Program-made: the position numbers and the translations under genes
Shown here: in pieces, positions 1-62,203 of the stretch
Position numbering within the stretch: the stretch's first letter is position 1
Layout: each line of letters starts with the position of its first letter
Notes under the pieces: model-generated
Told to the model about the DNA's origin: nothing
Databases searched by the model: none
Seen by the model: the letters and a program-made list of their open reading frames with translations, nothing else
From: Azolla caroliniana
Taxonomy: Eukaryota; Plantae; Polypodiophyta
Length of the DNA stretch: 64,000 nucleotides
Reading direction: 5' to 3'
Assembly: GCA_043228905.1 (NCBI GenBank)
Contig: JBHGNT010000020.1
Location: 12,524,001-12,588,000 of the forward strand

Positions 1-2
1 GT

Positions 3-2402
3 TTGACCAATGCTCCGACTACTTTTCAACAAGAAATGAATGACATTTTCCGAGAAAAACTTGGAAAATTTGTCGTTATTTTCTTGGATGATATTTTAGT
101 TTATAGCCGTACATTACAAGAACATGCTAGACATGTCCGCTTTGTTTTACAAACATTGCGTGACAAACAGTTTTATGCGAAGATCTCAAAATGTGAGTTC
201 TTCAAGAAATCAATTACTTATCTAGGACATCTCATAACCGAACGAGGAGTTGAAATTGATCCTTCTCGCATTGAGAAAATCAAGCTTTGGCCCACTCTTC
301 GGAATATTCGAGAAGTTCGATCATTCCTTGGTTTTGTGGGGTTTTTGCGAAAGTCTCTTCGTAATTACTCCCAATTGACGACGCCGTTTACTGATCTTTT
401 AAAAGGTCAAACGCGTAAGTCTACAAAACCTATTGTGTGGAATGCTACATTAGACCTTGCATTTAAGGAACTCAAGGACCTAGTTTGCAAGGCTCCTTCA
501 CTTCTTTTACCTGATCCTTCAAAACCTTTTGAGGTTGAAACCGACGCAAGCGATTATGCTATAGGTGCTGTCTTGTATCAAGATGGTAAACCAATAGCAT
601 TCGAGAGTAAGAAACTTGATTCTGCTCAATGTCGGTATACAGTTCAAGAAAAGGAATTATTTGCAGTTATACATGCGCTCAAAACATGGCGCCATTATCT
701 TTATGGAAATCACTTTGTGGTAACTACGGACCACGAGTCCTTGAAATATTTTTGTGACCAACAAGACCTGAAAGGTCGTAAGGCACGATGGGCTGATCTC
801 ATCCAGGACTTTGATTTTTCCATACGATATCGTAAAGGTTCCATGAACACTGTCGCTGATGCACTAAGTCGCATCCGTGAAGTTAACATGCTTAGCTTCA
901 CTGAAATAACATCAGATCTTTATGATCACCTTCGAGGAAAGTATCCTGATGACAATTATTTTGCAAAATACTGGGCAAGAGTCGAGTCTGGAACAGACAC
1001 CACCACACCCTCGAAGGAATACTTCCACATTGCTAACGGTCTGCTCTACCGTAATGGGAAGGTTTGTGTTCCAGATTTACCTGAGGTCAAAAAGAGAATT
1101 CTTTTTGAATGCCATGATGCACCCTCAGCAGGGCACCCTGGAATACATCGTACACTCGTTCTCATCTCCACTCAATTTTATTGGCCTAAGATGCGTCCTG
1201 ACATACATAGCTATGTGACTAAATGTCACCAATGTCAGGTTAACAAAGCCGAGCGACTTAAAGCCGCAGGACTTTTACATCCCTTGGACATTCCCAATAA
1301 TAAGTGGGAAAGTATATCCATGGATTTTATTGTTAGCCTTCCTCGCACCCAAAAAGGTCATGATGCCATATGGGTTGTGGTTGACAGACTAACTAAAATG
1401 GCCAGATTTATTGCTACTAAAACCACGGTAACAGCTCCTGAATTGGCTTACCAATTCGTTGATGAGTTATTTCGTTTTTACGGGTTACCGATGGATATCG
1501 TGAGTGACCGAGATCCGAAGTTTACTAGTGACTTCTGGACGCAAGTCTTTAAGAAGTTAGAAACTACGTTGAGCATGAGCTCCACGGATCATCCTCAATC
1601 CGATGGACAGACAGAACGAGTAAATCAAATTATTGAGGACATGCTTCGAGCATACGTTGGTGCAAAACCAACAAAATGGGAACGTTACCTCCCAATTTTG
1701 GAGTTTGCTTATAACAGCTCCAAGCATACGTCGACGGGATATAGTCCTTTTATGTTGATGTATGGATTTCAGCCATGAGCCCCGATTGATGTTAATATAC
1801 ATCATGATGAGTTGCGAAGTACGCAAAACTTTCTTCGGGATATGCAAGATATGTTGCATATTGCACGGGATAATATAAAAACAGCTCAAGATAGAGCGCG
1901 TCTTTATGCCGATCATCACAGGCAACCTCGTGTATTCAGCCCTGGACAGAAGGTATTTTTACGTGTACCTCACAATTCTAAGACATTGTCTACAGGTAAG
2001 TGCGCTAAGTTAGCCCCACGGTTTTGTGGACCTTTTACAGTCCTCAAACGAATTGGGTCATCAGCCTATCGTCTCGCTCTTCCCGATGGTGTTGGAATCC
2101 ATCGAGTCTTTCATGTAAGTCGTCTAAAAGAACTTCTAGGTTCTGGCGACAATACAGTTACAACTGAAACTCTGGTTACTTCTGAAGATTTATCTTCTAA
2201 ACCACATGTACCAGAAAGAATTCTCGATGTTAAAACAAAAAAATTACGTGCTAAGGAAATCCGAGAATTTAAAATAAAATGAATGGATAAATCAATCAAA
2301 GATGCCACATGGGAACGTGAAACGACTCTAAGAACTAACTTCCCTAACTTTCCATTGCAAGAGTGCAATGTTTTAAAGAGGGGGAGTATGTTACGGGCAT
2401 GA
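3..2402 (+). pseudogene. Ty3/gypsy pol frame with two premature stops
   Basis: One continuous frame broken by TGA at 1776-1778 and 2280-2282; the second replaces the chromodomain Trp. The frame runs through the PPT to TGA at 2400-2402. Confidence 0.9.
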
Positions 2403-2929
2403 CCATATAATATCCCGTGGTGAGAATTGTCGTAGTATTCTATACACGTGGATAAGTGTGAGGGTTAAACAAAGAGTCTAAAGAAGGGGAGGATTACTTT
2501 TAATCCTCGGGATTGAGACAACCCATGAGGCCAAGTGTGAACATGGTTGGGGGCCTTGAGAATTACTATAAATAAGAGGCCTAGCTACCCTCATTTGGGG
2601 CATGCATGGACTACATCGAGACTCTGCTCGTGTGGTGGGTCAACTCTTGTAGCGAGCGCGCCAGCACCAGGTACGACTCGACGCCACGGCGGTGGTATGG
2701 GACGCCGATCGAGGCTCGAGTCCGTCTCAATCCCTTCGCTCGGGGGTGGTCGGGTGGATCGGCACCCTTCTTTCTCTTTCTCCTTTCTATCTATCTTTTT
2801 CATTATCCTTATCTTAAGCTTACATTAGTATCAAGATCTATAATAGGAATAGTAGTTAGTATACTCTTTTCTACTAAGAATTTTGTTCGACAATCTCATA
2901 CCGTGAGAGTGGTCGAGATCTTCTTGACA
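2389..2929 (+). repeat. 3' LTR of the gypsy element
   Basis: Starts TGTTA directly after the PPT, ends TGACA, and contains TATAAATA near 2566. The right boundary is inferred from the terminal CA, without a second LTR to compare. Confidence 0.75.
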
Positions 2930-3396
2930 TAACTCCACTCATATAATGTATTGAATGACCACGATCTTATCAATATGTCACGGTGCATCGGTCACATTGA
3001 GTGGGGGATACAACAATTCACATAAATCCCATGGAGTAAAAGAGAAGAAGAAGAACACATGGCAAAGTCTTCGAGTAACAAGAAGCTCCTAGGTTGTGGC
3101 TTTGCAACACCTTGATCCCGAATCCAAGGCTTGAAATCAAGCTACTATGAATAGCGAGGAGAAAACTTTGGAGTTCCTCTTCATCATTTGTTGTAGATTG
3201 CCCTCGAGGGTTTAAACTATCTCTTGTGATGCCCTCCACTCGAGGTGAGTAGAAAACACGAGGGCATCTCATGGAATTTCTAAAAATGGAATATCAAAGT
3301 ACTCATTCACCGATTTATTCATTGGTGGATGCCCCTTTGTGGTTTTTGCTATCTTTTGCTATGGTGCCCTCCAATCGAGGTGAGAGAATAACACAA

Positions 3397-4016
3397 GAAA
3401 TATCCATTGTCATTGTCTTCACCCCATATACCGAGTGCAACTGCTTAAGCCAATCCACTTCTGGCATTTGCTAAAAATGAATCTGAGATCCCACTGATGT
3501 TGTTGGCCCATTGCCAAGTTTTCCCCATGCAAGACGAGTTCTAAGGCCTAATACATTTCCAATAGAATACCGGACAAGAGAATTAGCCAAAAGCGGCTAA
3601 TTCATCCAACCATCCCATATGTCATGCATCTATTTGTGTAAGAAAATCATGATTACATCCCATGCTCTGACGATTCCCAAGATAAATCTATTGGATGTTA
3701 GATTCCGTCTCTATGTCTGTACATATGTCAAGAACATCCATTTCAAAGAAGGCAACCAGTTTCCTCCCGTCTTGGGAGATTATTGCATCAACTGATTAAG
3801 TAGCATACCCTTCAATGCCTCTATCCCTGGCAACAATCCTTTGACTACCAACTTTGTCAGGAGAGCTCGAGATTGCATAAAGGGATCTATTAAAGCCAAC
3901 CTTCCTTGTCTTTTTAGCCTAATCAAAACATCCCATCCCACCTTGGCCATTGCACGAGACCCATTTTTCCCACCCCAAAGGAAGTTACGTATGAGGCATT
4001 GAACTTTCATGATTGC
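3397..4016 (-). mobile_element. L1-like LINE ORF2 fragment, same family as 39225-43213
   Basis: IRNFLWGGKNGSRAMAKV.WD motif; alignable by eye with 40505-41125. Confidence 0.9.
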
Positions 4017-5513
4017 CCACCTAGGGAATCATGAAAGTTCAAAGCCTTATACGAAACTTCCTCTGGGGTGGAAAAAATTTCCTTTATTGTGATTGCGGCA
4101 ACAATTTAATATCATGGAATGAAGCTTGATGGAAAGGGAGTATTATGGTCCATCATCTAATTCTTCTTAGTTTGCCAATTCTACAATTAATCTCATTGCA
4201 TCACATGTCTTTCCACTAACCATTTTCATAAATGACGTCTTCACATACTAGATTCGATAACTTTTCTAATGTCATCATCCACTCCTCACATTGGCTCACT
4301 ATTATCAATACTATATAATTCCTCTTCCTCTTCATAGCCAAGTGAGGTTTCTTCTGTAAAGTTTAATGTGTTCACTATTATCTATATAAAATAGTTCCTC
4401 TTCCTCTTGCAATTGTTTTAGGGGTGTAGTAAGTTCTATAATTACTTTCTAATGGAATACCCCTCACCTTTTAATGTGCATTCGCCTTCTACTTACTGGC
4501 TTGTTGCTTGTTGAAAGAGCAATTACATCTTTTTCTAGATTTTATCATTGGTTGATTTAATTAACATTGGTGTTTCAAAGACTTTATGTTCTTTTGGTGA
4601 TAACAATGACCTTTGTTGCATATTATATTTGAGTGGTTGAATAGAGTTGGTCGTGAGCATTGATATATTCAGTTGCAAATCTTTATACAACAACAATGCA
4701 ATTCTTTAAGTGGTATTACTTATATGATTGAATAAGCTTCATAAGTTGTTTGAATCCTTTGCATATTGAAGCAAAATGATCAAACTTTGGCTCATTTTCT
4801 ATGTTAAATACCTCTATTGAATAAAAAGCCTTTGGTCTTCCTATGGGAGAATCCACAATGCTAGATCGTTGCATGATATTGAAACTAAAGTCAATAGAGA
4901 AGAAAACTTGCTTATTCCATTATAAATATCAACCCAACTTAGTTTGTATAATTGTATGAGACGTCAATCTATAATGTTTTCTTCATGTGTATTTGTCTAT
5001 ATTCTACGTAAACAAGAATTTCCTCATATCTTCTTGTGACATCTCTTCTAGTCATTCATCATTTAACATTTTTGTGAGAATCACTACTTGCTTTTGTTAC
5101 ACTCGCTCATTATAAATATACCATCTTGATCTTGAAACTAAATGATGCGCATGAACACAAAAGTTTTGGATGTGGATAATCGATGTATAGGTTAGGACAA
5201 TCTTATATTATATCCTCTGTGACGCGTTTCTAGAAAAGTATTGAAAGGAATTTCTTGACAAGGACGAGGAAATGTTTGAGCTATTTCCAACATGGCTTGC
5301 GCATCTCCTTTGAACTTTGTAAGATTTCGTGAAACAAGTGAACACAAGGCTCTTGTTAATGTGCACAAAATTTCAATCCTTTTTCAAGACAAAAGTGAAT
5401 ATGCCCTTTGTTAATGTGCACCGCTATGTTTGCCATGGCTTATACACAAATTGCACCTCCCCATCTCTTTTTTTCATGGCATACAATTGGCTGATGGGCG
5501 AGACCAGAAGCAC

Positions 5514-7441
5514 TAGCGATGGGCCTTGTTTGGTTTCTTTGCCTTGACACCGAACCAAACTATTTATATAAAACAAAGACCAAACCAAGTTGTTTATGAA
5601 CTTTGAAGCCATTTAAGAAAAGGTAAACTAAACCCGTTAGAATTCCAACCACGCTGCAACATTTTCCGCAACCGCGCATCGGACTTGATGCTTACTTTCA
5701 GGTCTTCCTTTTGCTTTCAACGGGAGTCATTACAACACGACGTTCAATGCGACACGTTAGAACTTACCATTGACAATATTGGTGCAATTTACCCAACCAA
5801 GGTTGCGTACTCGTCTTCCTGACCAAACATCCTCGCAACATCGTCTCGCCTTGCAAGTTTTACCGAACAAAGCCATAGATCGATGGGATACGTAACCATC
5901 TTTTAACATCGTCAAAACTCTAGCTGCAGCCTTTGAGATTTAGCGTGAGCGAAATGGTGTGCACCAACAACCCCTGATCAAAACAAACAGTTGAAATGAG
6001 TTCTCTTGTTCTCCTTTCCTTGCCAATGTAACGTCAACGAAGAAGAAACAAGAAGTTCTCGTTGTAACGAATGACAACGTTCTCGAAATGCTGCAAAGCT
6101 CGAGTTGTTTGCTAGTCGACAAACCCTCCACCTCCGCATGTCATCGGGCTGGAGGCCGTATGACCTAGTTTCGAGGAGGGGTCGCTTCCCGAGGTTTGTG
6201 GCACGTACCATATAGCGTTTGAGGGTTCTAGAAAGGGAACGAAAATTGGTGTGAAACTATCGTCGATCATTTTCCCAATTTGGTGCAACCATACAAGTGG
6301 TGACCCGAGTCCCGCGGATGGCACAAAACCTCGACGCGCTAAGGTGAGGAAGACGGTTTCCTAGTGAGCTAATATGGTACGTCGGCATGCTCAAGAATAA
6401 TCACGTCGCCCTCTCTCTCGTGTTGCCAACAAGAGGGTGTTTTCCTGCTCCAACTTCGTAGCAAGAATGAACGAGGCAGACTCATTGACACGCGTCGAGT
6501 AGGTAAGAACATCCATACTACTTAACGAGGCCACTCGTCATGCTCACGCTCCATTTGCTAACCTTGATCTTGTTTACAACTTTTCCATGACTTCTTGAGT
6601 TTTTTAACACGGAGAAATAAGCAAGAGTTGTTCTCTTTGGATTCTTTATCTCTCTTTGAGTTTTAAGTCATCAACATCAGAGTGGCGCAGCGGAAGCGTG
6701 GTGGGCCCATAACCCACAGGTCCGAGGATCGAAACCTTGCTCTGATACTGTGCGGTTGAATTATACGTTGTACGTCAAAACCATCGCTACGATCTTGTTA
6801 CCCTCCTTGCGTGGGTTCTTATTCAAGACGTTACCGTCGCTCGAGCTTCGTTCGAGGAGTTCTTTAGGGATTGCTAATCGCGCACGTGTGGAAGCTAAAG
6901 AGGAATGGGCCTGTAAAGTAATTGCCATGCCGGTGCCTTAGTTAGGGCTTTTGAATACATTTGGTGATCACATCAAAGTCGAATGTAATAAGTACTTGCT
7001 CCCTTAGTGGTCAACCTAAACCGTTTAGGGAAAAGTTGAAACCAAACTGAATCATTTAATAAATTATATAAACGTAACCGTTTAAGTCAAACTAATTAAA
7101 AATCTAAAACGAAAAACATTAGGTTGATTAAATCAATAAAAAACATTAATTAAACCATTAAATTAAATAAGCATTAAAGTTAAATTGATTAAATCAATAA
7201 AAACCCATTAATTAAACCATTAAATTAATATACCATTAAGGTGGCAAAAAAAGTTAACCAATAAACCTTTAAACCAAACCATTTAAATGTATAAACCAAT
7301 CAACACGAGTTTTAGAACCAAACTGAACTGAAAGTGAACCGTTTATTAGAAATCTAAACCAAGCCAAACCATTACATTTTTTTTTGGAAACCATGGTTTT
7401 TCGGTTCGGTTCAGTTTGAGCCGAAATTGGGCCCATAGCTA
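5514..7441. mobile_element. Non-autonomous hAT-type DNA transposon (older copy) with internal cargo including tRNA-iMet
   Basis: Left end TAGCGATGGGCC, right end GGGCCCATAGCTA. Flanks AGAAGCAC (5506-5513) and ATAGGCAC (7442-7449) match at 6 of 8 positions. Both subterminal AAACCG/AAACCAAAC-rich regions resemble the ends of 49674-54341. Confidence 0.75.
6676..6747 (+). tRNA. tRNA-iMet: Initiator tRNA-Met (CAT)
   Basis: 72 nt ATCAGAGTGGCGCAGCGGAAGCGTGGTGGGCCCATAACCCACAGGTCCGAGGATCGAAACCTTGCTCTGATA. A1-U72 pair, ATCG T-loop typical of eukaryotic initiator tRNA, CAT anticodon, upstream CAA. Confidence 0.97.
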
Positions 7442-7486
7442 ATAGGCACTGAGGTGTGTCCCGGGTTGGTATTCTCAAGAGTCTTG

Positions 7487-7803
7487 AGGGTTGAGAGGGA
7501 GAGGGGTATGTTGTGTAAATTCCCAAAACCACCCACAAAAACGAAACATTGGGGGTGGGAGGGAGAGGGGTATGTGGTGTAATTTCCCAAAACCACCCAC
7601 AAATACAAAACACTGGGGGTGGGAGGGAGAGGGGTATATTTTGTAATTTCCCAAAACCACCCAAAAAAAACGAAACATTGGGGGTGGGAGGGAGAGGGGT
7701 ATATTTTGTAATTTCCCAAAACCACCCACAAGAACAAAACATTGGGGGTGGAGGGAGAGGGGTATGTTGTGTAATTTCCCAAAACCACCCACAAGAACAA
7801 AAC
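7487..7803 (+). repeat. Tandem repeat, ~64-bp unit x5, G-rich
   Basis: Unit GGGGGTGGGAGGGAGAGGGGTAT..GTAATTTCCCAAAACCACCCAC..AAACATT at about 7487, 7551, 7615, 7680 and 7744. Confidence 0.95.
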
Positions 7804-7895
7804 AGAGTCTTCTTCTTCTTCGTTTTTTTCTTCTTCTTCTTCTTCTTCTTCTTAGGGTAGGGCGGGACAGAACACAGAGACAGACACAGAGCGCG

Positions 7896-8004: not shown

Positions 8005-11000
8005 AAATACTACCCCTCCCTCCTACCTTGATGATGGAAAGCATAATTCAAATGCCAATCTGTGTCGGTGGGATTCAAATTTAAAACCCTCCAAATCAGT
8101 CCAAACTCCATTTTGAAGCTAAAACTTCCACACGTACCCTTGGATTCTTGGTTCTGCAAGAACCCTGACAGTGTGATCTTTAGATAGTATGTTGGCAATT
8201 GTCAATTGGTCTAAGCATGATCAGAAAGACACGGTTTCTTTTGTTAATATCTTGATGTCTGATGGTTAATGATTAGAAATCCATTTTGAGTGCATTTTCT
8301 CCAATATGTTGTGTAAAAGACAAAACATGTCCTTATTATGAACTTGTAGCGGCGGAGGCTATGTCTGGAATCTTTTGGGGTTGTGGGTTCAAGTTCCATT
8401 TCATGCATCATGGATAGGGATTCCTTATTGTACATTGCTTGTTTCTGAAAAATAGAAGACTGGGTTGAATACCTCAGAGTTGCATTGAGTAGGAGGATCC
8501 GTAGCAAGATGAGATTAACAGTTGAACCACTGCCACAAGATTCTTTGTATCCAAATATTCATTATAAGCACATTATAAAAAGAATCTTGTGGCAGTGGTT
8601 CAACTGTTAATCTCATCTTGCTACGGATCTGCCTACTCAATGCAACTCTGAGGTATTCTCTAAATTGAACTCTGAATCCCTATAAATGATGCATGAAATG
8701 GAACTTGAACCCACAACCTCAAAAGATTCCATGAAAACGAAAACAATATTGTCCCCAAATTAAAGGAGATATTCTCTAAATTGGTGACATCAATGCAAGG
8801 GACGAGATATTGTTCAGGAGAATGATTCTATAGTTCAAATTCATGCCTACATTAAGCTCTGCATGTGTTAGTTTTACTTTTATCTTTGTGCTTGTCTCTT
8901 GTTATTTCGTTCTTTTATCCTTGTTTGTTTGATCAGTGATATGTGAAAGCTTGTGCAATTATACACATACAATTAAAAGTCAAAAAATTGAAGCCCTTGT
9001 GCAAAAATCGTGCTGTATGAGGCTCTAAAATAGTCAAAGCTCAAGATTTGTAGCTTTAGGATTGATATCTGTACTACCGTATCTGATAACCTGAGGTATT
9101 TTTTGCAGGCATTATACAAATCATGTAATGGGGCTCAATGCTTATGACCGGCACAAGAAGTTCATGCATGATTTTGGTGTGTAGCTCAATTTATGTTGCA
9201 TAATTTTATGCATGTTGGATCCTCCAAATATTCTAAAATTATGCATAAGTTATACATGTTGGTGTGTAGCACATTTTAAGTTATACAGGCATTCAACATT
9301 CCATATTGAACACTTGGGATAATTAAAGCAGGATACCATTTTTATGGTCACATTACCAAACTAAGATGACTTCTTTTTACAAGAGTAGTACTAGAAGCTA
9401 TGATACTATTCACAGAATGCATCTGAAATCAAGAGGTTATGGAACAGTCCTGTACATCAAGTATTTGTGGAGGGCTACACATAGCCATACAAGAAACTAT
9501 GACACTATTCATAAAACGCATCTGAAATCAATAGGTTATGGAAGAGTCCTGCACATCAAGTATTTGTAGAAGGCTACACTTTTTAAGCATCAGTAGACTT
9601 TTAGGTGTTTGCGAAATGTTGCAAGTATTTTTATATTTTGATGGTTACTGCCTGGAAAGTATTGTCACTCTATGTGTTTTTGTTTGCAACAGTGCTTCAC
9701 TACAATAAATCCTCATTGACGAGCAAGGAGAAAAGGCCCATTAAAACAGATCAGGACACTCTTCGAGAAACATACAGGTTCTTGTCTTGATATATAATGT
9801 AATGCTGGCTGATTGTTTAATAATTATTGTGCATCATCTTCTCTTCACAGGTTCATTCGCTCTGAAGAAGACAATTCAGAGAATTCATGGGAGCAAAGGC
9901 TTGCAAAGCGTTACTATGATAAATTATTTAAGGAGTATCCTCTTTTATATGCTTATGCTTATTTTACTTGCTTGCGTATTATTTTTTCAAGCAAATATTC
10001 GTTGGATGCATGTTTCTGAATATCTTAACTTGAGCATATATTGTACTTTCAAATGATTGATATATTGGTGTACTTGACATCAAATCAGATATTGCATTGC
10101 CGATATGACCCACTACAAAGATGGCAAGGTGATAATCTTTTCTTTCACATACATCATTCAATTCTTCTTCTTATTAGATATTGTCCTTATAAATAGCTCC
10201 AAGTTTATTAATGGTCTCTACTTTATGGTAGTGACACGTGAAACTAAAAATGGTTAGGAAAGCAGGAGGATTGGGAGGAGATACTGGGATAAACCTTTAG
10301 TCTTGACAATTTCTTGCATTCCAAATCCATTATATACAAGTCACAGATTGGAATAGTGCCTTAGTCCCTATTGGGGTTTCTCCCATCTCAGCCTGAGTAT
10401 ATGATGGGACTTAGATGCTTTGCTCATTATTGTGGCTGACGTTGTCAACACATTTGCAAGAACAAGGAAATACCAATATTTGTTGCTGAAATGGAGTTAT
10501 TGTAATCACATGGGATAAATATGAATACACTATCCATGTTCCAATTTAATTTTGGATTTCCAAACTTGAACATGAACACTATAACACCCCAATTTTAAAT
10601 TTTTGTTATGCTGGGGGTTTTAATCAGGCACACTGCCTATGAAACACAAGGAAGGCCGACCTGATCTCCGCTGATACCCAATCTATACAAAAAATACACA
10701 TCTCATGGGAATTGGCATCCACTGAAGAAATATTTTCAGCTTTGCTATGTTTGATGCATTATGTGGTGTGATTGACACACATTGTAAACCCATAAGTCTA
10801 TGTTCCCAAAACATTTATCAATGTATTTAGTTACTCTTCTTTTATCAACACCATGTTATGTACATGTTTGCTGTAATGAAGTTATGCAATCATGCAGACG
10901 ATATTGAATTAATATTGATGTTCATTTCAATTAGAGCAAAAAAGTCAAGAATAATTTCTTTTTTATATTTACTTCTATAACTTAAATTGTTCCTTTGAAT

Positions 11001-14407: not shown

Positions 14408-17023
14408 TCAAGGAAGTGGCTCCAGTACGCTGCAAAGCCTCGTTAGATGAAGATAAGCATCTGTACCTACAATACAAACGGATACGACATTAATCGAATA
14501 CAAGACATTTGAGGATTCACTACTAGGGTAGGTGTGACCTAGTGGTTTAGCTACTTGCTTTACAAACACTAAATGAATATGTACATAATATCGAGAATTT
14601 GCCATGGTTTCACCTAGTGGTTCAGTTCCTTGCCTTACAACAAAAGGGCGGCTAACATATGTTTTTTTTAAACAAATGATTTGTTTTAGTTAAGTAGACA
14701 AACTCCAACAAATATCAATCCTATGTTGGAGCCAAGGAGTCATTGGCAAGACAATTCATAGCTTACCATAACCTTCCATTGATATTATTTGCATGTCCCC
14801 ACCAAAGTATCGAGCATGGAGTCTAGTAAGTGGGAGCCCGAAACCATAACCCGCCATGTTCACTGGTAAAGCTTGACTACAGGTTGACTTCGAAGGACAT
14901 CTCGACGTGCTGTAAAGGTAGCTCCAAATTTTTGAAAGACCACTTCTTGGGATCCCACCTCCCTCATCTGAAATCTACAAACAAAGACAGAAGATTTGAA
15001 TCATGCTGTCATATTGAAACATATGGATGTATGCATTATGTGGCATGCATATATGTGTATATGAATGTGTGCATGCATGTGTGTTATGAGCATGACCATA
15101 ATTTATCTGTGGTAAGTTGTACCATAGTATTCTATACATGGGGATAAAACCGAGAGAGTAAAGATGCGAGGATTACTTTTAATCCTAGGAATTGAGATAA
15201 CCCATATGGGCCAAGTGTGAACTTGCCTAGGGCCTTGAGTGTGACTATAAATATGAACCCTAGCTACCCTCATTAGTCACCTTAATATGCTTAATGATTG
15301 GCAATATAAAATTACACATCTTTATAGTGAAACCTTAATGGTAACATCTTCAAGCCCATTTGCAACCACTACTTTGATAGGCGGAGGATCATGATCTGCA
15401 TTCATAAACCTTTCCGCAACTGCTCGAAGCGAGTTCTTTACCACCTCGAATACCATGTGGTGAAGATGTTGGCTAACATACCTAGTGAAGAAGCCATGTA
15501 ACAAAAAAGAAGAAGATATTAAAGCCAAAATATCAATGAAGGAATGAAACTTAAATGTTGCATATATAAGAAGAGAGACAAGAATTCGGGGCGGTGGAAA
15601 ATTTGTTACTTACGGAAATGTTAAATTTGGATCACCATATATATGCACCTCCGGAGAATTACCATATGTCCTCATACATATAGCCCGAGCATCATCAATT
15701 GCGCTTTGGGCAGTTACAAAAGGCCTTTCTCTTAGGGAAATAAGACCAACATCTGTCGAGCATCTTTTCGGATGGTGTAAAGCCACATGCTGACCTACAC
15801 ATAATAAGATCCATATACATATAGATAGATTCAACATATCATGTGAAATTTCTTTCTTTCTTTTTTTGTTGCTAATTAGTGCTATTTTCCTTATATACCT
15901 ACCTATCAACATGCGGATCCCGATCCTCGACATAAAGAATCGGTCGAGGAATTGGTGAATCTCGGGGACCTCATTATCACTCGCTAATCGAAGACCCAAA
16001 ACTTCTTTCAAATCCCTAATTCCCATCGCCATCGTAGGGACGACATCGTTGTGCCTTGTTTTGATCCACTGCAGAAACTCCGCGAATTTCGATTCATCAT
16101 GGGTGTCTCGGATCGGCGGGAACTTGAGTATATCTTCGAAAGATTTGGTGTACCAATCGCGCACCTGAAGGAGCACATGCATGCCACATCGATTGAAAAC
16201 CCTACGCCCTAAACTTCAATAACTAAATGAAGAAAATAGAATAAAGAACATATATTTTTTCATGTATATAACCTAAATTGAAATTCCTAAACCCTAAAAT
16301 TCAATAACTTTAATGAACAAAATCGAATAAAGAACATATATCTTTTCATGTATATAACCTAAATTGAAAACCCTAAGCCCTAAACTTCAATAACTAAATG
16401 AAGAAAATAGAATAATGAACATATATTTTTTCATGTATATAACCTAAATTGAAATTCCTAAACCCTAAACTTCAATAACTTTAATGAACAAAATAGAATA
16501 AAGAACATATATTTTTTCATGTATATAACCTAAATTGAAAACCCTAAACCCTAAACTTCAATAACTAAATGAACAAAATATACATTTTTTCATGTATGTA
16601 ACCTAAATTGAAAACCTAAGCCCTAAACCCTAAACTTCAATAACTAAATGTGCAAAATAGAATAAAGAACATAATATAATTTTTCATGTATATAACCTTC
16701 AAGATATGGGGATTGGAAGAGAGGCCATAAGGGAGATTGTCAAGCTCGACCACTCGGTGTGCGAATCGAACCGGGAGCTCTTCGTGGAGGAATCGCGCAG
16801 ATAGCATAACATTCCTGGGCTTCGGGAATTGCCCGAAATCCATCATGTGTTTCAAGCTCACTGCTGTCCTCTTCTTTAGGCTGTACTTTCTAATCATCTC
16901 TTCTCCATCTCCCAATGCTACACTTGCTTCAAAGGATCCATTGATATTTGATGCAGCCTTCAGGCACCCATGCTGGGCACTATTAATTTTGGAACTAATG
17001 AGGGGAACTCTAGCCATTTTCAT
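14408..17023 (-). CDS. PDK: Mitochondrial pyruvate dehydrogenase kinase family protein, 6 exons: 17023-16697, 16164-15903, 15794-15614, 15481-15334, 14974-14767, 14466-14408
   Basis: FLHEELPVRFAHRV, FLDRFFMSRIGIRMLIGQH, N-box FEVVKNSLRA, G1 SDEGGGIP, G2 AGYGFGLP and GTDAYLHL; GT-AG introns in phase. Confidence 0.95.
15082..15274 (+). mobile_element. Truncated LTR (5' ~190 bp) of the same family as 2389-2929, inside PDK intron 4
   Basis: TGTTATGAGCATGACCATA...GATTACTTTTAATCCT.GG.ATTGAGA.AACCCAT..GGCCAAGTGTGAAC...CTATAAATA...CCTAGCTACCCTCATT aligns with 2389-2595. Confidence 0.9.
16190..16696. repeat. Tandem repeat, ~86-bp unit x~6, filling PDK intron 1
   Basis: Recurring TTCATGTATATAACCTAAATTGAAA..CCCTAAACCCTAAACTTCAATAACT. 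Confidence 0.93.
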
Positions 17024-23593: not shown

Positions 23594-26500
23594 TTATACC
23601 ACACAACCTGATTCCCCTTTATTTCCAGCTCTACCAGCTTCTCTAGCAGATTCTCTCGCAGCTTCTCTAGCAGCCTCTTTAGCAGCTTTCTTTGCATCTT
23701 TTTTCTCTTGAGCTGCAATTGTAAGCCCATCAAGCCATTCCAATGCATCAGCTGCGGCATTATTTTCTGCTTGTCGCTTAGTGGATGCAACTTTTCCTTT
23801 GAACTGTTTCCCTTTCACAGTTACCATCGCCTGAAATGTTTGATTTCTTAGTGCTTTAAGTTTATATTGAGGGGCTTTGTATCCTGCCTGCGATAACCGA
23901 TTGTTGAGAAGACTTTTAACGCACACAACGCGATCCCTGTTTGTGGTTTTTTTTGGATGAGGCTCAGCTAATGTGAATCTTCCCTCATTCTTGTCTCCGT
24001 GTAGGAGTTCAAGGAGCGCTTCCATTAATCTTCGATTCTCCTGAAGAATTTCTAACTGTGGATTCTCCAACTGTTCAGAATTAAAATTCTCTTTTGTTAT
24101 AAAGATTTAAAATCAATTTCCCTTTCTGTTGCCAAAAAAGCTACCTCTCCTCCCTCTTTATGAGATCAATACCACATACGAATTTAAAGCAAAGACAGAT
24201 TTCTGACATAAACAATAGAGATAAGAACCTTTTGATAGATAATGTCATCCAGTTCCCTTCTCAATGTCACGAAAGTCTCTGCCAAGGGGGCATGCATTGA
24301 GAATTCAAGCCACCCTTCTTCCATGTGTAAATAACCAGCCTACACGATCACGAAGTTGACGAGATTAGTTTCACCATCATGAGAAGCTTCTAGCTCAATT
24401 GCAGAGGGTCATCAATATACAAAATAAAATCAACAGCAACATCATAGGTATTACCTTTTCACTGAGATAGACTTTTCCACCAAATAGAAGCAGCATTGAA
24501 TCAGTTATCCCAGTTGCATCTTGCAAGAGGATGTTTCCACTTCTTATTTTGCCACTGAATGCAAGCCATGGAAATTGTATTTTTTCCATTTTCGACAAGA
24601 TGGAGTTCTGTATAAAGATTGACAGCATACGAATTGCAATTATCATTTTCCATAGCCCATAATTCTCAACATATTGTATTGGCACCAAGATATACCCCTC
24701 TCTCTTCCAAATCTAATCACCTAGTATCAAAACAAAAAAGGAACTTCTATCATGCCCAGTAAATCAATTGTATGAGCCTTTACGCAAGGCTCATATGTAA
24801 CTAGTCTAAAGTGTGGTCACAGAATTTAAATTCATTGTGTGGAATTATTTCAATTGAATTCTAGAGTAAAAACTTCCAATATTTCTTCACATGAAAATCT
24901 TTTCATGTTCAAAAAACAAAAATGAAATTGAAAAACAAAAAGACTGCGATGAGGATTCCTTTGACTGGGAAATGTAAGGTTCCCTCACACCCAGAAGATC
25001 ATGGAAAGGAAGTTGATAATCTACATTTTCTCATATTGGTCCATTGCCATATGTTTATTTTACTAGTTAATAACTATATATCTTATACTCTATGAAAGCC
25101 TGGCACACTCAAGCAAACCGTTGAATCTAAAAATGAACTTACTTGATGAAGAAGTACAAACCCATCTTCCACTGTTTTGTACTTCGTGGAATTCTCCATT
25201 GTCTAGAAATAAGAAATAAATAAAGAATAAGGTTCGCGATTACCACTTAAAATAATTATAATGGCATTAAATGGAAGCGAATTTTACCCAGACTGAAGAT
25301 ATTCCAGGAAACAGACCAGAACATATGATCCCTTTAAGAAGGTCAAAATCCTTACTGTATTTGTTGGAATAATCACGGACAGGGTCTACAAAGCCTGCTT
25401 GTCTGAGCAACATCTCAAACTGTCGACGAAGAGAATGCATTACTTGCATGGTGGAAAAGGAGAGAAAATGCTTCCAACAGTAATTGATTGCATTTCCAGC
25501 ATCCATAGCACTCTTCCAACCATCGTATGCATGGACAAGGGCAATATGATCACTACAGTCACCACTTCCATACTTGAGCCTTTCTGCTTCTGCAACCTAC
25601 AGTATTCAAAAAACACAGGATGGCATATATATGTATATATGCAGATATATTTTCAATTCCAATTTATTCAATAATATATAAAATTCACTTACTGGCTTCT
25701 TGTCGACAGGTAGCATGAAGGGATCTTTAACAGTCAGACCAGCTGCAATTGTAAGTACTGGATCAAGACAAGAAAAAATTGCCCCCATGATCAACATTTT
25801 TCCTACCCTTGGGTCCACGGGAAGATTTGCCAAGTGAGATCCTGCAAATTGAAGGTCTAGTGTCAATAGCTAGCACTAGAATTTTCACACAGCATGTAAA
25901 AGACCAAGAAATATATGCTGCACTATTTTCCAGAATTCTTTTCCATCCGGATGTTCATCAAGTTGAGAAAGATTTTATTAATTCTGAAAAAGACACTATG
26001 TCTTTATAGGAGGAACATGGCCTTTGAAGACATCACTGAACACTAACCAAGATTAGTAAGGTTCTCAGCATCATCTAGAGCTCCAATTATCTTCAAAAGT
26101 TGAACAGAATTACGAACCTTCAGCGAACCATCATGGTGGAATATTAGTGTGATATAAAATAAACAAACACTTTCAACTGGTAATTATTAGTTATTCGCTC
26201 ACTGATAGTGGATCAGGTGGCTGCATCGCTTTAGACAGGAAGTCTCCAACTGTCCCCAGCTTCAAGCTTTTTATTTGAAGGCATAGAGAGTGTAAAGGGG
26301 TCCTCAGCAGCTCTGGTTCCTGGTATTCTGCAAATGCTTCATAAACCGCCTTTGGATATAGATGGAAGCATTCACCAGGTTGAACCCTACCAGCTCGTCC
26401 TCTTCTCTGCAGTAAATATTGAAATATATCTTCCTTCGGTTCAAGAAATTTGAACTTAACAACTTAATTTGTCTTGATATATACTGTGCAAATTACTGCA

Positions 26501-47700: not shown

Positions 47701-47907
47701 GAGTTTGTTGAGACCTCGGTAGTCGACGCATAAGCGTAGAGAGCCGTCCTTCTTCTTCACAAATAAAATGGGGGCCCCGACTGGTGACTTAGAAGGTTGA
47801 ATAAATCCTTTCTCGAGGTTCTCATCGAGATACACACTAAGGGCCTTCAACTCTGGTGCAGACAACGCATATAGAGGACCAAAGGGTGGACATGCACCTT
47901 CTTGATA
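44724..47907 (-). mobile_element. Ty3/gypsy chromovirus, internally deleted: RT-RH-IN-chromodomain, PPT, 3' LTR (45073-44724); TSD GGTAT
   Basis: LRLCVDYRGLN, YLDD, ETDA, integrase HHCC, chromodomain EYEVDQILDSR..YLVLWRGY..ATWEP. PPT GGAGGGGGG precedes TGTCA; the LTR ends TGACA. GGTAT at 44719-44723 and 47908-47912. Confidence 0.93.
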
Positions 47908-47912
47908 GGTAT

Positions 47913-49055: not shown

Positions 49056-49894
49056 TTTATGTGTTTATTTGTGCTTAACTACATGCTTGATGCTTACATG
49101 CAAATTTGCATTACGAGAAAATGTGTGGGTATGTAGATAAATATAAAGGTGTGCCTAACTATATAACTTTGTGCTTATAAGTATGTATATGTGTAGATTC
49201 ATGTGTGTGTATGTGAATGTGAAATGCAAGTATGTTAGTTTTTGGATATAATCATATAGGTAAGAGTAAATGCCAATGTATGTCCTTGTAAATTGTAACC
49301 GTAAATGCATTTTGTACAATTTTGTAATTGAGTGAGTGAGTGTATAAGTATTTATATTTATATTTCTATGTATATGTTTGGGTTTATGTGTATATGAGTG
49401 TGTAAACATAAACATCAAGAATAATGTGTATCGGTTTGTCAATGTGAACTTGTTAATGTATATATTTATATATGTGTGTGTATATATATAGGGTTATGCA
49501 TGTGCAAATTTGATTGGGTATGTCGATGTTCATGAGCAGGACGGAACTCGCAGTTTGGGCGCCCAAAGCCTCAACTCAATGGATTTTGGGAGCTCGAGGA
49601 CTTTTCAAGCATTGAGGGTCAGATGTGAACCCTTGAGGTTTAGGTCAATAATGTTCATGGACATGTTCATACTTAGCAATGGGCCCAGTTCAGTTCAGTT
49701 TCTTGGCCTTGAAACCAAACCAAACCATTTATTCATAAAAAAACCCGAACCAAATTGTTTAAAATTTATGAAGCCATTTAAACCGAACCGTTTAAAAATT
49801 AGGAGAAACCAAACCATTTACGGAAAATTTAGAACCAAACCAAACCGGTTTATCATAAAACAACCCTTTTTCCATTACATCTCAACCCTTTTAT

Positions 49895-52240
49895 AGAGTT
49901 TCGTAGTACACTCCAAGGTACCTTCTGTTATCTTGGCACACTTATAGTTACTCCTCTAGTTACCTCTAACTAACCCTTAACTAAATTATGGTATACCGTA
50001 TAACTAACTAAACTATGGTATAACTCCCCTAACCCTGGTTATAGTTACTTGGGTTAGGTGAGGGGTTTTACCACGCGATCCCACAACTCCCCCCTTCGAA
50101 AAACTTGCATATGTCGCTTGTGCTTGATGGTGCCTTTGATCCGTTGTTGTGGGGGCTACATCTAATGTGTGGCTATTCCAGATGGCGTCTCGGTTGCTCA
50201 TGTTTGATGGCGGCTCTGGCTCATCCTGCTTGTTGGCTGGGATTGGAGAGTTTTATGATTCTTCATTGCAGGGGACATCATGGTGAGTTGCTTCTGCTTG
50301 TGATGCTTGAGTTGTGGTAGTATCTGTGGAGTGGTTGACATACGACTTCATCCACATCACGTGCGCATAGGTCATCCATCCATTAGCATCTCGATTGAGG
50401 GAATAGGTATTGGTCCTCATTGATCGGATGACAATAAAAGGGATCCATCTATGCATCATTGATTCACTGAGTCCCCGTCACCGGATCGGGAAATAGACTA
50501 GGACTTTTGCTCCCGCTGCATACTCTATCGCCCGACGGCTTTTATGATAACACCGCTTTTGTCGTGATTGATTATGTAATTAACTACAAGTTAATTAATA
50601 CCTAATTATGTGATTAAGTAGCGGAAGATTATGTGATGTGTGTGTATGTATGTGAGAGTGTGAGAGTGTGAGAGGAAGAGAGAAAGAACACTTATGAACA
50701 ACAAGACAAGATGGGGATGGTTAACTATATTAAAAAACATCGTCCAATACAAAAATACCCACAATGAGGTATATATACATCTCATGTGCAAAAGTGCACA
50801 TGTGTGAGTAGAATATAGGTACAATGATGTAAGTCCTATATTAAATGAACATGGGAGTGGAGGATCTACAATGTATCCCACTCAAGTACAAAATCCTATT
50901 TAAGGCTTTAAGGTCAACACACTAACTAGATTCTATCTAGGTAACTTCTAAGTTACATGTGTTGACTAACTAACTAAATCTAGTTGAGCTTGATATCTCA
51001 ACACTGAGTTAGTTGTAGGTTCTTGTGTATGCTCGACCATAAGATAGGTTGGATTTGTTGCAAGTGTAGCCACCAATCCATTGCGTCGACCCGAGTATTT
51101 TTGTTGGGTAGGTCGACCTTGATGTCGCGGGGTAAGCGGGGGTCTCACCCATATAGTGCTCGGAAAGGGCTGATTCGAGTCAAGGCTTGCACCAAGGTAT
51201 TATACGTATGCGTGATGAAGGGTAGGATCAAGTCCCACGTTGTGTGTAATGGGTCGATGAATGCGGTAAGTTGTTGTTTAATCGTCTTGTTCATCTGTTA
51301 TGTCAATCCGTTCGTCTGGGGATGATATGGTGAGGTAAATATCTGTTGAATGCCTAAATGTGTGGCTAATGCTTGCAATACCCCTCCGCTAAATTGTGGT
51401 CCTTTATATGATAGGATGCGGGTTGGGTAGCCATGTGGGAAAACAATCCGCTCCATCAACTTTGTTGCTATGGTGTTGGCCCGTGCGTCCGGAATTGTGG
51501 CGGTTTCGGTCCATCTCATCAAGTATTCAGATATGACTAAGATATACTTGTTTCCTACCTGGGATTCGGGAAAAGGGGTCGTCATTGGAATGGGGTGGTT
51601 TAATCTGTTGACATGATTGGCATTATTTGATGTAAACCGCGATCGTTGTACACATTTGCGGCCAATAATACCGGAGACGGATCTTGTCCAACACCTTGTG
51701 GAATCCGAGGTGGCCAGACATCGTGTGATCGTAAAAAAATTGCATATATAAATTCCACAAGCTATGTAGTATGTAGATTCGTGGCTCTTTCCCTGTTTGT
51801 ATAAAGTAATAATAAGACATTGTTTTGTAATTGGAAATGGCTGTGTACCTTTTTGTATGTTGTCGACTGGATCTCATGGATAATTTGTCGTATTTTCTCA
51901 TTGGCTTGTTGTAGGGCTGGTATCTGTGCCATCGTTGTGGGTAATTGGACTAGTGTAGGATTGAATTGAACACATTGTGTTTCCACTCTTGACAAACCAT
52001 CGGTGATCAATTTTTGGACTCCTTTTTTATAAGTTAATGTGAACCGATATTCTTGTAAAGCCATTGCCCATCTTAATAGACGACCTAGTGGGTGTGGCTT
52101 GTTAATTAGATGAATTAGGGGCTGATGGTCTGTTTCTACCTTGACGTGGGTGTCATGCAAATAGGGATGGAACTTTTTGAAAGCCCATACGATTGATAAC
52201 CATTCATTTTCTTTTCTTTCTTTTCTTTTCAAAACCAAAA
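49895..52240 (-). mobile_element. Decayed Ty3/gypsy fragment (RNase H end, integrase, PPT, partial LTR) inside the hAT element
   Basis: VETDHQPL..GRLLRWAMALQEY, GHLGFHK..RYYWPQM, SPYHPQTNGLT; PPT GAAGGGGGGAGT then TGTGG at 50085. Confidence 0.85.
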
Positions 52241-52376
52241 TATCCTTCCATTAGTTTTTAGAAAAGTCATAACAATTGCAACATACAAAATATTTTTTCC
52301 CAACTCATCTTTATAAGACAATGGTTAAGGAAACAAATCTATGTACTCCAAAGTAGAGGAAAAACTAATCTGAAAG

Positions 52377-53330
52377 TTATTCTATAGACACATTCCAAGC
52401 TATTCCATTGACAACAACAAAAGTAGTTGCATCCAAAGACAAGACCTCGCAACTCATAGATATGAACCATTTCAATGCTTCTTCAACCTGCTCTTGTTCA
52501 ACATAATTTGTAATCAATACATTCCAAGCTATTCCATAAACATAAACAAAAGTTGTGACATCCAGAGACAAGCCCTCGCAACTCATAGATTGGAACCATT
52601 AGAATGATTTTTCAGCATGCTATATCCACCAATGCAATTCCAATAAATCTTCCTTTACCCTAAAAACCGAATGCTACCACAAGCTTCCAAGGTAGAGAAC
52701 AATGTATTCCATGCCTCTACATCTCGGTTTTGAAGGCAATCAAATACATTCTATACTTCTTCAAGACAACCACATTTCATATGCACGTTCACATCAATCA
52801 TCTTGTTGGTTAACACCAAATTCTTGGTTCTATACTCCCTCCATTCTCTTGAAACTACCTCGTATACATGAAGACAATGAACCACTTGTATGCTCACACA
52901 ACTTCGGAGAACCATAGCATGTAGACCATTCTTCAAATTACATCATTCTGCCACATCCAATCCTTGTTGTATGATCACCAAGTAAACCACAAAAAATCTC
53001 TGTTGAACCATGATCCACCTAGCCACATATAGCATATGTCCAACAATGCCTTTCCAAGCTCAATATTGTCTTTTAGCAGCCTGATACTCATGATTCCATT
53101 GCAAGTTACTGTGCCTATTAACCACTCCTATAGTGCCACTTGGTAGTAATATCCTGAAATTAGTGCATTTTTAGAAGCCATAGCCTGAACTGGAAGTCCC
53201 TCTTTCCTCATAGGTAAAGCACACAAGATGAGGGTCATATGGCGGCCTTCTAGCGTCTTCCATTACTTTGTATCCACACAAAGAAGTTGCATTGTGAAAC
53301 ACCATCCTTCTTCAACCTGCTCATAGTTAG
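52377..53330 (-). pseudogene. PLS-type pentatricopeptide-repeat gene fragment inside the hAT element
   Basis: WNVLITNYVEQEQVEEALKWFISMSCEVLSLDATTFV and neighbouring degenerate PPR motifs with stops and frameshifts. Confidence 0.8.
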
Positions 53331-54599
53331 CTACACCTAAAATTGTTTCCACTCATCCTCCCCAGAAAAAAGAGAAAACCACTCCCCAAATTTGAAAAAT
53401 AAATGAAACATAATCTATCCTCCTTGTCACTCCCTAGAAGTGCTTCAACATCCTTTAACATCATCCATCTGCCCCATAATAAAAAGATTTTCTCATAAGG
53501 ATGGATTCCCCAAGCAAAGCCAAACCACTCTTGTAATTTCCACTTTTAATGTAGACAAAGTAGTTACATCTTGAGACAGTCTTTTATTTTCCACATTTAA
53601 CCAACTTATAAATAGCAATGCATAAGGCCTGGTACCAAATGTATACATCCTAACCATTCATTTTTTGTTGTGGAGTAATTATTTTCTGCAGGAGTAAGCG
53701 ATCAACTTATATAGGCAATCAGGTGCTTTGCCCCTGTTGTATCTGCTTGTAGTAGTACAACTCCCTACCCATGATTTGGTGCGTTTGGTTGCAAAAGGAA
53801 GGGGCGTGAGAAATCTGGGTGCGCCAACTAACGTGCTTAGTTTAGTGTGTTTTTCAATTGGATGAAGTTGTTCTCACATTCTATTGTCCACTCAAACTTT
53901 GAGCCTTTTCGTAATAGGTGTCGTAGAGGGGATATCATGATTCATACTTATTATAAATTTGTTCATTATACTTATCATAAATTTGCTCATCATACTTATC
54001 ATAAAATTGCTCAAATTTGGTCATCATTCTTATTATAAATTTGGTCATCATAAATGAAAAGGAGACTCTACATATAATGCATATAAGATTTAATAAGTTA
54101 AAACTAGAGTTTAAAATTAAAAGTTGAAAGCTAGAGCCTATACGGAAAATTTAGGAGTATTTTTTAACCTTTAAACTGAAACACATATTAAACCGAAACC
54201 GCTAAACCATGAAATTCAAAACCGAACTAATTAGTAACATTTGAAACCAAACCAAACTGTTTATTTATCTTCGAACTTATAAACCGTTAAGCCACGGTTT
54301 AACAATTCGTTCGGTTTGAACCGAAACGGGGCCCATTGCTATTCATACTCACCACCTTTTCAGTATAGGTCACTTTTTCCCTACATCGACCCTAGCTAGG
54401 CTCAAACCCTTAACCTTTTATCTTTCATCGACCTTTTTGTTCAAGTAGACAACTCTTGCCACTTGAGCTACCTTTAGTTGTTTGGTTAATTCTACCTTGT
54501 CACTTCTTCTTTGGGAATCTCTTAATCTTGACCTATTGCAAACCTAACATTTATCTACTTTTGTTCCCTTTCACGTACCACATCACAACAACCACTTCG

Positions 54600-61114: not shown

Positions 61115-62203
<1,089 letters not shown>

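What the first reader, a model, noticed from the sequence alone, without database searches (positions are those of the whole stretch)
5514..7441. A hAT-type non-autonomous transposon that appears to carry an intact initiator tRNA-Met gene
Seen: TIR-like ends (TAGCGATGGGCC / GGGCCCATAGCTA), an 8-bp flank pair matching at 6 of 8, and subterminal regions homologous to both ends of the clean element at 49674-54341. Together they enclose the tRNA-iMet gene with its upstream CAA context. Known: hAT elements make 8-bp TSDs and have short subterminal transposase-binding repeats (AAACGG in Ac/Ds). tRNA-iMet is the usual primer for plant LTR retrotransposons. Inference: a DNA transposon captured and may disperse a self-contained Pol III gene. 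The tRNA looks better conserved than the TIRs, which suggests selection on the cargo.
Basis: partly seen in the sequence, partly recalled or inferred. Interest (0 to 1): 0.8.

Follow-up and report, generated by a model that had tools for sequence, protein, structure and literature searches.

The report
Transposon with one captured tRNA gene
An aged, non-coding DNA transposon in a fern-like plant encloses a complete initiator-methionine tRNA gene, but the DNA upstream of that gene inside it is a diverged copy of a separate multi-copy repeat, so this is likely a one-off, now decaying capture rather than a transposon family that spreads tRNA genes.

Summary
5514-7441 has hAT-type 13-bp inverted ends, a degenerate 8-bp target duplication (6 of 8; chance about 0.6%) and a 72-nt initiator tRNA-Met gene. 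Public contigs show the left end is a true terminus of a family at about 540-fold the depth of the flank, and that the left junction is real in two runs. The tested cargo (5639-6670) is about 91% identical to a different, homogeneous multi-copy repeat (14- to 41-fold depth) that continues leftwards without the inverted end. No listed contig other than this locus joins end and cargo. This copy shows methylation-type C-to-T decay, and the tRNA has a G:U wobble at 50:64 and no nearby oligo-T. Best reading (0.6): a single Pack-hAT-like capture, now silenced. Selection on the cargo is not shown. Open and more interesting: the source repeat likely carries the tRNA gene itself, as an array or a mobile element. 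The scan's notes showed no eukaryotic case, only prokaryotic analogues.

The parts
5506..5513 (+). left copy of degenerate 8-bp target-site duplication (AGAAGCAC)
   Evidence: 6 of 8 match to the right copy, P about 0.006
5514..5526 (+). left 13-bp terminal inverted repeat, 2 differences from the TIR of 49674-54341
   Evidence: loose ends of other contigs exactly at 5514 in 3 of 4 runs laid
5527..5638 (+). left subterminal arm with AAACC-type words; high-copy family sequence
   Evidence: 77% to the left end of 49674-54341; summed depth 540-553 times the flank in X1 and X2
5639..7012 (.). cargo: non-coding, GC 47%, CpG-rich and CWG-poor; 5639 to at least 6597 is an 86-92% identical copy of a separate multi-copy repeat; right boundary inferred from motif density only
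   Evidence: no credible Pfam hit in 12 of 12 frames
6636..6675 (+). T-rich upstream region with CAA at -4 to -2 (plant Pol III start context)
   Evidence: motif context from PMC13437025 passages
6676..6747 (+). intron-free initiator-type tRNA-Met(CAT) gene: A1:U72, three G:C pairs next to the anticodon loop, A54 and A60, G50:U64 wobble, no encoded CCA
6949..6952 (+). first run of four T after the tRNA, 200 nt downstream: earliest likely Pol III stop
7013..7428 (+). AT-rich right subterminal arm with AAACC-type words and a 62-bp tandem duplication
7429..7441 (-). right 13-bp terminal inverted repeat, 1 difference from the TIR of 49674-54341
7442..7449 (+). right copy of degenerate target-site duplication (ATAGGCAC)
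49674..54341 (+). second family member: perfect 13-bp TIRs, perfect 8-bp TSD, unrelated interior with Gypsy RNase H and integrase fragments

Best explanation
This is a non-autonomous hAT-type DNA transposon whose interior holds a complete initiator tRNA gene within about 1.4 kb of DNA that was likely captured once from a separate multi-copy repeat and is likely now silenced and decaying. Shown: the paired ends, the family's abundance, the reality of the left junction, and that the cargo up to at least 6597 has multi-copy homologues that lack this left end. Inferred: capture by template switching or gap filling at a break inside an element, before or after it landed upstream of FRA10AC1; that the source repeat includes the tRNA gene (about 0.7); that the copy is methylated in CG and CHG contexts and contributes little tRNA; that any movement needed a transposase supplied in trans.
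For: (4500-6670 laid on contigs of X1, X2, X11, X12 at 80% likeness): one contig with 0 differences bridges the left junction in X1 (4500-5877) and X2 (4500-5866). Loose ends exactly at 5514 with mixed flanks in 8 of 269 contigs laid (X1), 13 of 310 (X2), 5 of 157 (X12). Cargo homologues begin at 5639 and share a non-TIR leftward extension (2 contigs in X1, 4 in X2; agreement 0.97 and 0.93; 326 letters in the deepest record of each run), with no joint to the TIR arm among 9 joints listed. Deepest cargo contigs are 41 and 14 times the flank contig and differ from the window by 8-9%. Direction of change: the window has A/T where other contigs have G/C at 47 places against 19 the other way in X1 (p 0.0008) and 60 against 38 in X2 (p 0.03); X12 gives 28 against 25. 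15 of 17 window-side C losses in the listed cargo rows are in CG or CHG context (p 0.001 against 0.5). The sister element carries unrelated Gypsy pieces, so the family picks up miscellaneous repeats. G50:U64 is one CpG-type transition from a C64 form printed in an algal small-RNA table (PMC6678167). Pack-hATs and single-copy gap-filled Pack-TIRs are described (PMC8903248, PMC8277862).
Against: One search listed only 25 of 759 pieces, 20 of 165 loose-end rows and 40 of 229 difference rows. In the cargo-only listed rows the direction bias is 17 against 9, not significant (p 0.17); the significant tallies cover the whole laid stretch, including the terminal arm. The tRNA keeps all initiator marks tested, both stems and its CAA, with fewer changes than expected if the copy decayed at 9-12% (P 0.002-0.04). 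A missing oligo-T is less telling outside angiosperms (PMC13437025). A TIR further than 326 bp to the left of the cargo homologues is not excluded. Contig depth is a rough guide to copy number only.
Confidence: 0.6

Rival explanations
1. Captured once, but the tRNA copy was kept by selection and works as an extra initiator gene at its new place.
For: All initiator marks tested are intact; CAA start context present; 1-2 changes in 72 nt against 6.5-8.6 expected at 9-12% divergence (P 0.002-0.04); a G:U pair keeps the T stem closed.
Against: At 4.5-6% divergence on this lineage alone, P is 0.07-0.37. The surrounding cargo shows CG/CHG decay. No four-T run within 200 nt. The reference initiator sequence of this organism was not obtained.
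Confidence: 0.15
2. One reading: a hAT subfamily carries the tRNA gene as regular cargo and disperses it; this element is an old or internally deleted member.
For: The cargo has 14- to 41-fold homologues reaching at least 6597, within 80 bp of the tRNA; their leftward extension ends in one AAACCG-like word; the TIR family is abundant.
Against: The depth ratio of the cargo differs three-fold between X1 and X2 while that of the ends does not (540 and 553). The sister element has a different interior.
Confidence: 0.1
3. The two ends are remnants of two separate insertions and the tRNA region is resident DNA between them.
For: The TSD is imperfect; the left and right arms are not alike beyond the tips (score 38, shuffle maximum 51).
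Against: 6 of 8 flank match (P about 0.006); no inner partner end: only 6 TIR-like words with up to 2 mismatches in 64 kb, 4 of them the two pairs; each arm matches the corresponding arm of the intact sister element.
Confidence: 0.05
4. The cargo is organelle DNA inserted in the nucleus (a NUMT-like piece), the deep contigs being the organelle genome.
For: One deep class plus a few single-copy variants, depth ratio varying between samples, GC 47% and CpG observed/expected 1.1; many organellar tRNA insertions are reported for a fern (PlantRNA 2.0 preprint).
Against: The tRNA is of cytosolic eukaryotic initiator type. CWG is depleted (0.43) as in the window's Gypsy sequences (0.17-0.85). 5 of 9 C losses on the source side are at CG (p 0.06), a hint that the source is methylated.
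Confidence: 0.05
5. The tRNA is a reverse-transcribed primer copy at the primer-binding site of an LTR retrotransposon read on the minus strand, and the cargo is an LTR end plus leader.
For: tRNA-Met is the commonest plant LTR primer (PMC6317226); the composition of the cargo resembles the window's Gypsy LTR; a TG follows 3 nt after the gene; other notes on this genome report tRNA-derived pieces in Gypsy elements (unchecked).
Against: No encoded CCA (1 of 3 letters match), the gene is full length with a CAA start context, no open frame or Pfam domain on either side, no similarity to the window's LTRs above shuffles.
Confidence: 0.04

Closest known systems
Pack-hAT / Pack-TYPE non-autonomous TIR elements of rice and maize (Gisby and Catoni 2022, PMC8903248; passages read)
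   Same: Short TIRs, 8-bp TSD, no transposase, foreign DNA in the interior; up to 2 TSD mismatches are tolerated in their Pack-MULE benchmark.
   Different: Their Pack class is defined by hits to coding genes and singletons were removed; the word tRNA occurs 0 times in the main text. Here the cargo is a non-coding repeat fragment with a whole Pol III gene, in a fern-like plant.
Single-copy Pack-TIRs made by gap filling, and multicopy Pack-hAT-N8_XT (Tan et al. 2021, PMC8277862; passages read)
   Same: A filler from elsewhere inside a TIR element, usually single copy; multicopy cases prefer GC-rich cargo.
   Different: Animals; tRNA occurs 0 times in the main text; microhomology and timing of capture could not be tested here.
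Tandem tRNA gene homoclusters of land plants, such as Arabidopsis Pro and Ser-Tyr-Tyr clusters (PMC13578239 section 21 read; PMC13437025 passages)
   Same: A homogeneous multi-copy unit with variable copy number is one candidate for the source of the cargo; clustered Arabidopsis tRNA genes are epigenetically silenced.
   Different: Initiator-Met clusters are not named in the section read; tandem arrangement of the source was not tested.
Cassandra TRIM retrotransposons with 5S rRNA sequence in their LTRs (recalled; the paper was not held)
   Same: A Pol III gene inside a plant non-autonomous mobile element.
   Different: Cassandra is a class I element with the Pol III unit as a family-wide feature; here it is a class II element and the cargo looks single-copy in this arrangement.
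SINE-associated full-length tRNA genes in birds (PMC8044555; passages read)
   Same: Full-length tRNA genes inside mobile DNA, mostly decaying.
   Different: SINEs begin with the tRNA; here about 1 kb of upstream DNA is shared among copies, which excludes SINE-type copying.

Membership tests
hAT superfamily (non-autonomous member) | 8-bp target-site duplication (PMC8903248) | tested here: met
   8 of 8 at the sister element; 6 of 8 here, P about 0.006
hAT superfamily (non-autonomous member) | short terminal inverted repeats shared by a dispersed family | tested here: met
   13-bp TIRs; many contigs end their match at 5514 with mixed flanks
hAT superfamily (non-autonomous member) | short repeated subterminal words (recalled) | tested here: met
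   AAACC/AACCG-type words cluster in both arms; the Ac word AAACGG itself is absent from this element
hAT superfamily (non-autonomous member) | an autonomous partner with the same ends encoding a hAT transposase | not testable with these tools
   No genome held; no transposase domain in the parts scanned; end patterns found nothing in three collections
Pack-TYPE element as defined in PMC8903248 | interior with a hit to a host coding gene | tested here: not met
   No credible Pfam hit in 12 of 12 frames; 11-16 stops per 344 codons in every frame of the left cargo. It works like a Pack element but its cargo is non-coding.
Pack-TYPE element as defined in PMC8903248 | several similar copies with different TSDs | tested here: inconclusive
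eukaryotic cytosolic initiator tRNA-Met | CAU anticodon, A1:U72, three G:C pairs next to the anticodon loop, A54 and A60, no intron (features recalled) | tested here: met
eukaryotic cytosolic initiator tRNA-Met | purine at 64 that can take the Rit1 ribosyl-phosphate (PMC7694415) | tested here: not met
   U64 paired with G50; a C64 form also exists in a green alga, so a pyrimidine may be normal in this lineage
functional plant Pol III tRNA gene | four or more T shortly downstream (PMC13437025) | tested here: not met
   first such run 200 nt downstream; the feature is less frequent outside angiosperms
functional plant Pol III tRNA gene | transcribed and processed | not testable with these tools
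   no RNA run could be laid on the gene
tRNA-derived SINE | unit begins at the tRNA; upstream DNA not shared among copies | tested here: not met
   about 1 kb upstream is shared with other copies
LTR primer-binding site / primer copy | complement of the tRNA 3' end including CCA next to an LTR | tested here: not met
   no CCA; 2 mismatches to the PBS motif; no LTR partner or coding domain

The most novel reading that the evidence does not exclude
The source of the cargo is itself a young, spreading mobile element (a longer hAT relative or a non-coding retroelement) present in tens of near-identical copies, each with a complete, promoter-bearing initiator tRNA-Met gene: a tRNA counterpart of Cassandra that changes initiator-tRNA gene dosage between accessions and could feed the primer pool of LTR retrotransposons.
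Probability: 0.2. Interest if true: 0.65.

Novelty: new member of a known kind. Interest (0 to 1): 0.33.

Why it matters
As it stands it is a clear example of a DNA transposon duplicating a whole Pol III gene, a route to dispersed tRNA genes and pseudogenes that my four searches did not find described for plants. One fern is reported to hold more than 7,500 tRNA genes and more than 10,000 tRNA-like sequences, explained only loosely by duplication and repeats, so such cases bear on that open question. The stronger lead is the unnamed multi-copy source repeat: if it carries initiator tRNA genes and varies three-fold in copy number between samples, it would be either an undescribed initiator-tRNA array or a tRNA-bearing mobile element.

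Tried and rejected
No whole genome is held, so TIR pairs could not be listed genome-wide and synteny could not be checked. No RNA holder was listed among 15 runs; this says nothing on expression. In one search, X12 covers much of the left flank at 86-89% identity and the terminal family but has no cover over 5668-6470, and X11 gave 1 contig; lack of cover is not evidence. Depth falls towards the tRNA in X1 and X2, but this locus's own contig is also missing beyond about 5880, so the fall is no finding. Exact-pattern scans: a 24-nt cargo word gave 0 hits in metagenome, prokaryote and viral collections; 20-22-nt end words gave 0 hits in the same three. Pfam on 12 frames of the cargo gave 3 weak hits below curated cut-offs, taken as chance. 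No codon periodicity in 38 listed differences (17/12/9). Rfam at E up to 5 gave only the tRNA above threshold, 1 of 5 rows. The 213 nt after the tRNA fold no better than shuffles (z 0.87). The bacterial promoter/terminator scan is not applicable. No PBS motif in the window to reveal the organism's own primer sequence (3 matches with 2 mismatches, 4.25 expected). The T-arm numbering printed was off by one and was corrected. Look-ups by sequence and by nearby place in the scan's notes were empty. Three papers were not held. The main supplementary PDF of PMC6786969 was too large to read and may describe tRNA clusters in fern genomes.

Full report
Setting. The window is plant nuclear DNA: an exon at 15613-16215 has its best named matches in Ceratopteris, Ginkgo, Taxus and Adiantum at 47-51% identity (227 hits, 120 listed), and 9852-9935 matches Pfam Fra10Ac1. 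I call it fern-like; a small-genome water fern is my inference, not a result. No whole genome is held, so the main outside evidence is one laying of public contigs.

Observation. The element at 49674-54341 has perfect 13-bp TIRs and a perfect 8-bp TSD; the element at 5514-7441 differs from that TIR at 2 and 1 of 13 positions and has flanks that match at 6 of 8, which chance gives in 0.6-0.7% of pairs. A scan of all 64 kb for the TIR with up to 2 mismatches gave 6 words: the two pairs and two isolated words. There is no inner end, so the two ends are best paired with each other. The arms match the corresponding arms of the sister element (77% over 108 bp, 78% over 54 bp), and AAACC-type words cluster at 5532-5630 and 7018-7407. 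The interior, about 5639-7012, is GC-rich (47%) and non-coding.

The tRNA. ARAGORN and Rfam each find one tRNA in the window, at 6676-6747. It has a CAU anticodon, A1:U72, three G:C pairs next to the anticodon loop, A54 and A60 and no intron; these initiator marks are recalled, as the review I tried was not held. CAA lies at -4 to -2. Two features are off the textbook form. Pair 50:64 is G:U. A search of papers for six 13-nt forms of the 3' end listed 12 of 13 papers; the G64 form occurs in several seed-plant small-RNA papers (listing counts only), and an algal table prints both a G64 and a C64 form (PMC6678167, passages). With G50, C64 is the expected partner, so U64 is likely one CpG-type transition; I could not obtain the organism's own reference. 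Rit1 modifies A64 or G64 to keep initiators off eEF1A (PMC7694415, passages), which U64 could not take. Second, the first run of four T is 200 nt downstream; such runs are least frequent in non-angiosperm land plants (PMC13437025, passages), so this weakens but does not exclude function. There is no encoded CCA.

Public contigs. One search listed 15 runs, 10 holding part of the stretch, none on record as RNA. One contig with no difference spans the left junction in X1 (4500-5877) and X2 (4500-5866), so the junction is not an assembly artefact; either run may be the window's own source. The terminal arm is very deep (540, 553 and 354 times the flank in X1, X2 and X12), and contigs stop matching exactly at 5514 with mixed flanks (8 of 269, 13 of 310, 5 of 157 laid). 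That is a true transposon end of an abundant family. The cargo behaves differently. It is matched by few contigs, led by one deep class (41 times the flank in X1, 14 times in X2) that differs from the window by 8-9%, plus a few single-copy variants at 8-14%. These homologues start at 5639 and share a leftward extension that is not the terminal arm; none of the 9 listed joints links it to the arm. They reach 6525 (deep class, X2) and 6597 (two variants, X2), and some cover remains in the last bin before the tRNA. The tool drops some contigs without notice, and this locus's own contig is missing beyond about 5880, so the fall in depth near the tRNA says nothing. That homologues run up to within 80 bp of the gene makes it likely (about 0.7, my estimate) that the source unit includes the gene. 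The tables were cut: 25 of 759 pieces, 20 of 165 loose-end rows, 40 of 229 difference rows. I used 38 of those 40 rows, dropping 2 in the terminal arm.

Direction of change. Over the whole laid stretch the window has A/T where other contigs have G/C at 47 places against 19 the other way in X1 (p 0.0008) and 60 against 38 in X2 (p 0.03); X12 gives 28 against 25. In the 38 cargo rows alone it is 17 against 9 (p 0.17). Of the 17 window-side C losses, 15 are in CG or CHG context (p 0.001 against 0.5), and 5 of 9 source-side losses are at CG (p 0.06); these rows are the best supported, not a random sample. The cargo keeps CpG (observed/expected 1.11) and lacks CWG (0.43), like the window's Gypsy LTR (0.92, 0.17) and unlike the FRA10AC1 gene (0.38, 1.03). 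I read this as a silenced copy of a nuclear repeat.

Selection on the cargo. With 1-2 changes in 72 nt, the chance under neutral decay is 0.07-0.37 if this lineage changed by 4.5-6%, and 0.002-0.04 if by 9-12%. The cargo's total distance from its source is about 9% and is shared by two lineages, so the lower rates are more apt. Selection after capture is neither shown nor excluded.

How it most likely arose. An abundant non-autonomous hAT-type family picks up unrelated repeats: the sister element holds two Gypsy RNase H pieces and an integrase piece and shares nothing with this cargo. At one element a break was likely filled from a multi-copy repeat containing an initiator tRNA gene, before or after the element landed about 1.7 kb upstream of the predicted FRA10AC1 start. 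Since then ends, target duplication and cargo have decayed. Gap filling is the model proposed for most single-copy Pack-TIRs (PMC8277862, passages). Shown: ends, family, left junction, separate source. Inferred: capture mechanism, tRNA in the source, silencing.

What the source is. Unresolved. Its depth ratio differs three-fold between X1 and X2 while that of the ends does not, and single-copy cargo variants sit near flank depth in both runs, so GC bias is not the cause. That fits a tandem array, a recently active element or an organelle; composition argues against the organelle. Land-plant tRNA homoclusters are known for Pro, Ser-Tyr, Gln, Ala and Ile; initiator Met is not named in the section I read (PMC13578239 section 21). 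Passages of a fern mitogenome preprint (10.1101/2022.12.23.521604) gave nothing for or against. The main supplement of the fern genome paper PMC6786969 (passages; supplements searched) could not be read.

Comparison. Pack-hATs with 8-bp TSDs are described in rice and maize (PMC8903248, passages), and hAT is listed among plant TIR superfamilies (PMC9033089, passages). By the definition in PMC8903248 this element fails the coding-cargo criterion but works the same way. Neither Pack paper contains the word tRNA in its main text. Four searches for a DNA transposon carrying a tRNA gene (listings and abstract starts only) showed no such plant case; most subscription papers are not searched. Bird tRNA genes inside mobile DNA are SINE heads (PMC8044555, passages), which the shared upstream kilobase excludes here. 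Cassandra is recalled only. The scan's own notes hold prokaryotic transposons with tRNA-like cargo and, in this genome, Gypsy families with tRNA-Arg pieces (unchecked); none concerns this element.

Verdict. Real element, real tRNA gene, likely a single decaying capture: a new member of a known kind with unusual cargo, interest 0.33. The lead worth following is the multi-copy source repeat.

Noticed in passing
window 49674-54341: Sister element with perfect TIRs and TSD; its interior holds Gypsy integrase and two separate RNase H fragments, either captured or nested.
   Followed up: partly
window 7488-7804: Five copies of a 64-bp unit with a G-rich strand (runs of G that could form quadruplexes), between the element and the microsatellite-rich start of FRA10AC1.
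   Followed up: no
window 3397-4078: LINE-like fragment 87% identical to 40504-41135, ending in a 116-bp fold-back palindrome at 3963-4078.
   Followed up: no
window 8366-8731: Fold-back (inverted-repeat) element, 78% arm identity, in the predicted first intron of FRA10AC1.
   Followed up: no
window 1-3014 and 45070-47920: Gypsy remnants keep CpG (observed/expected about 0.9) but lose CWG in non-coding parts, while the FRA10AC1 gene shows the reverse: a hint that CHG methylation drives decay of repeats in this genome.
   Followed up: partly
window 5768-6231 and 6533-6543 (contigs): Other copies of the cargo repeat carry a rearrangement (joint going back 464 bp in X2) and 15-bp insertions; the deep class has a 15-bp insertion at 5792.
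   Followed up: no
window 6471-6545: A short stretch 130-200 bp upstream of the tRNA has homologous contigs in the relative X12; it may be a conserved element of the source repeat.
   Followed up: no
window 15613-16215 and 23597-24106: Exons of a pyruvate dehydrogenase kinase-like gene and of a double-stranded-RNA-binding protein.
   Followed up: no
window 61120-62209: 1.1-kb (TGTGTA)n simple repeat, 174 copies.
   Followed up: no
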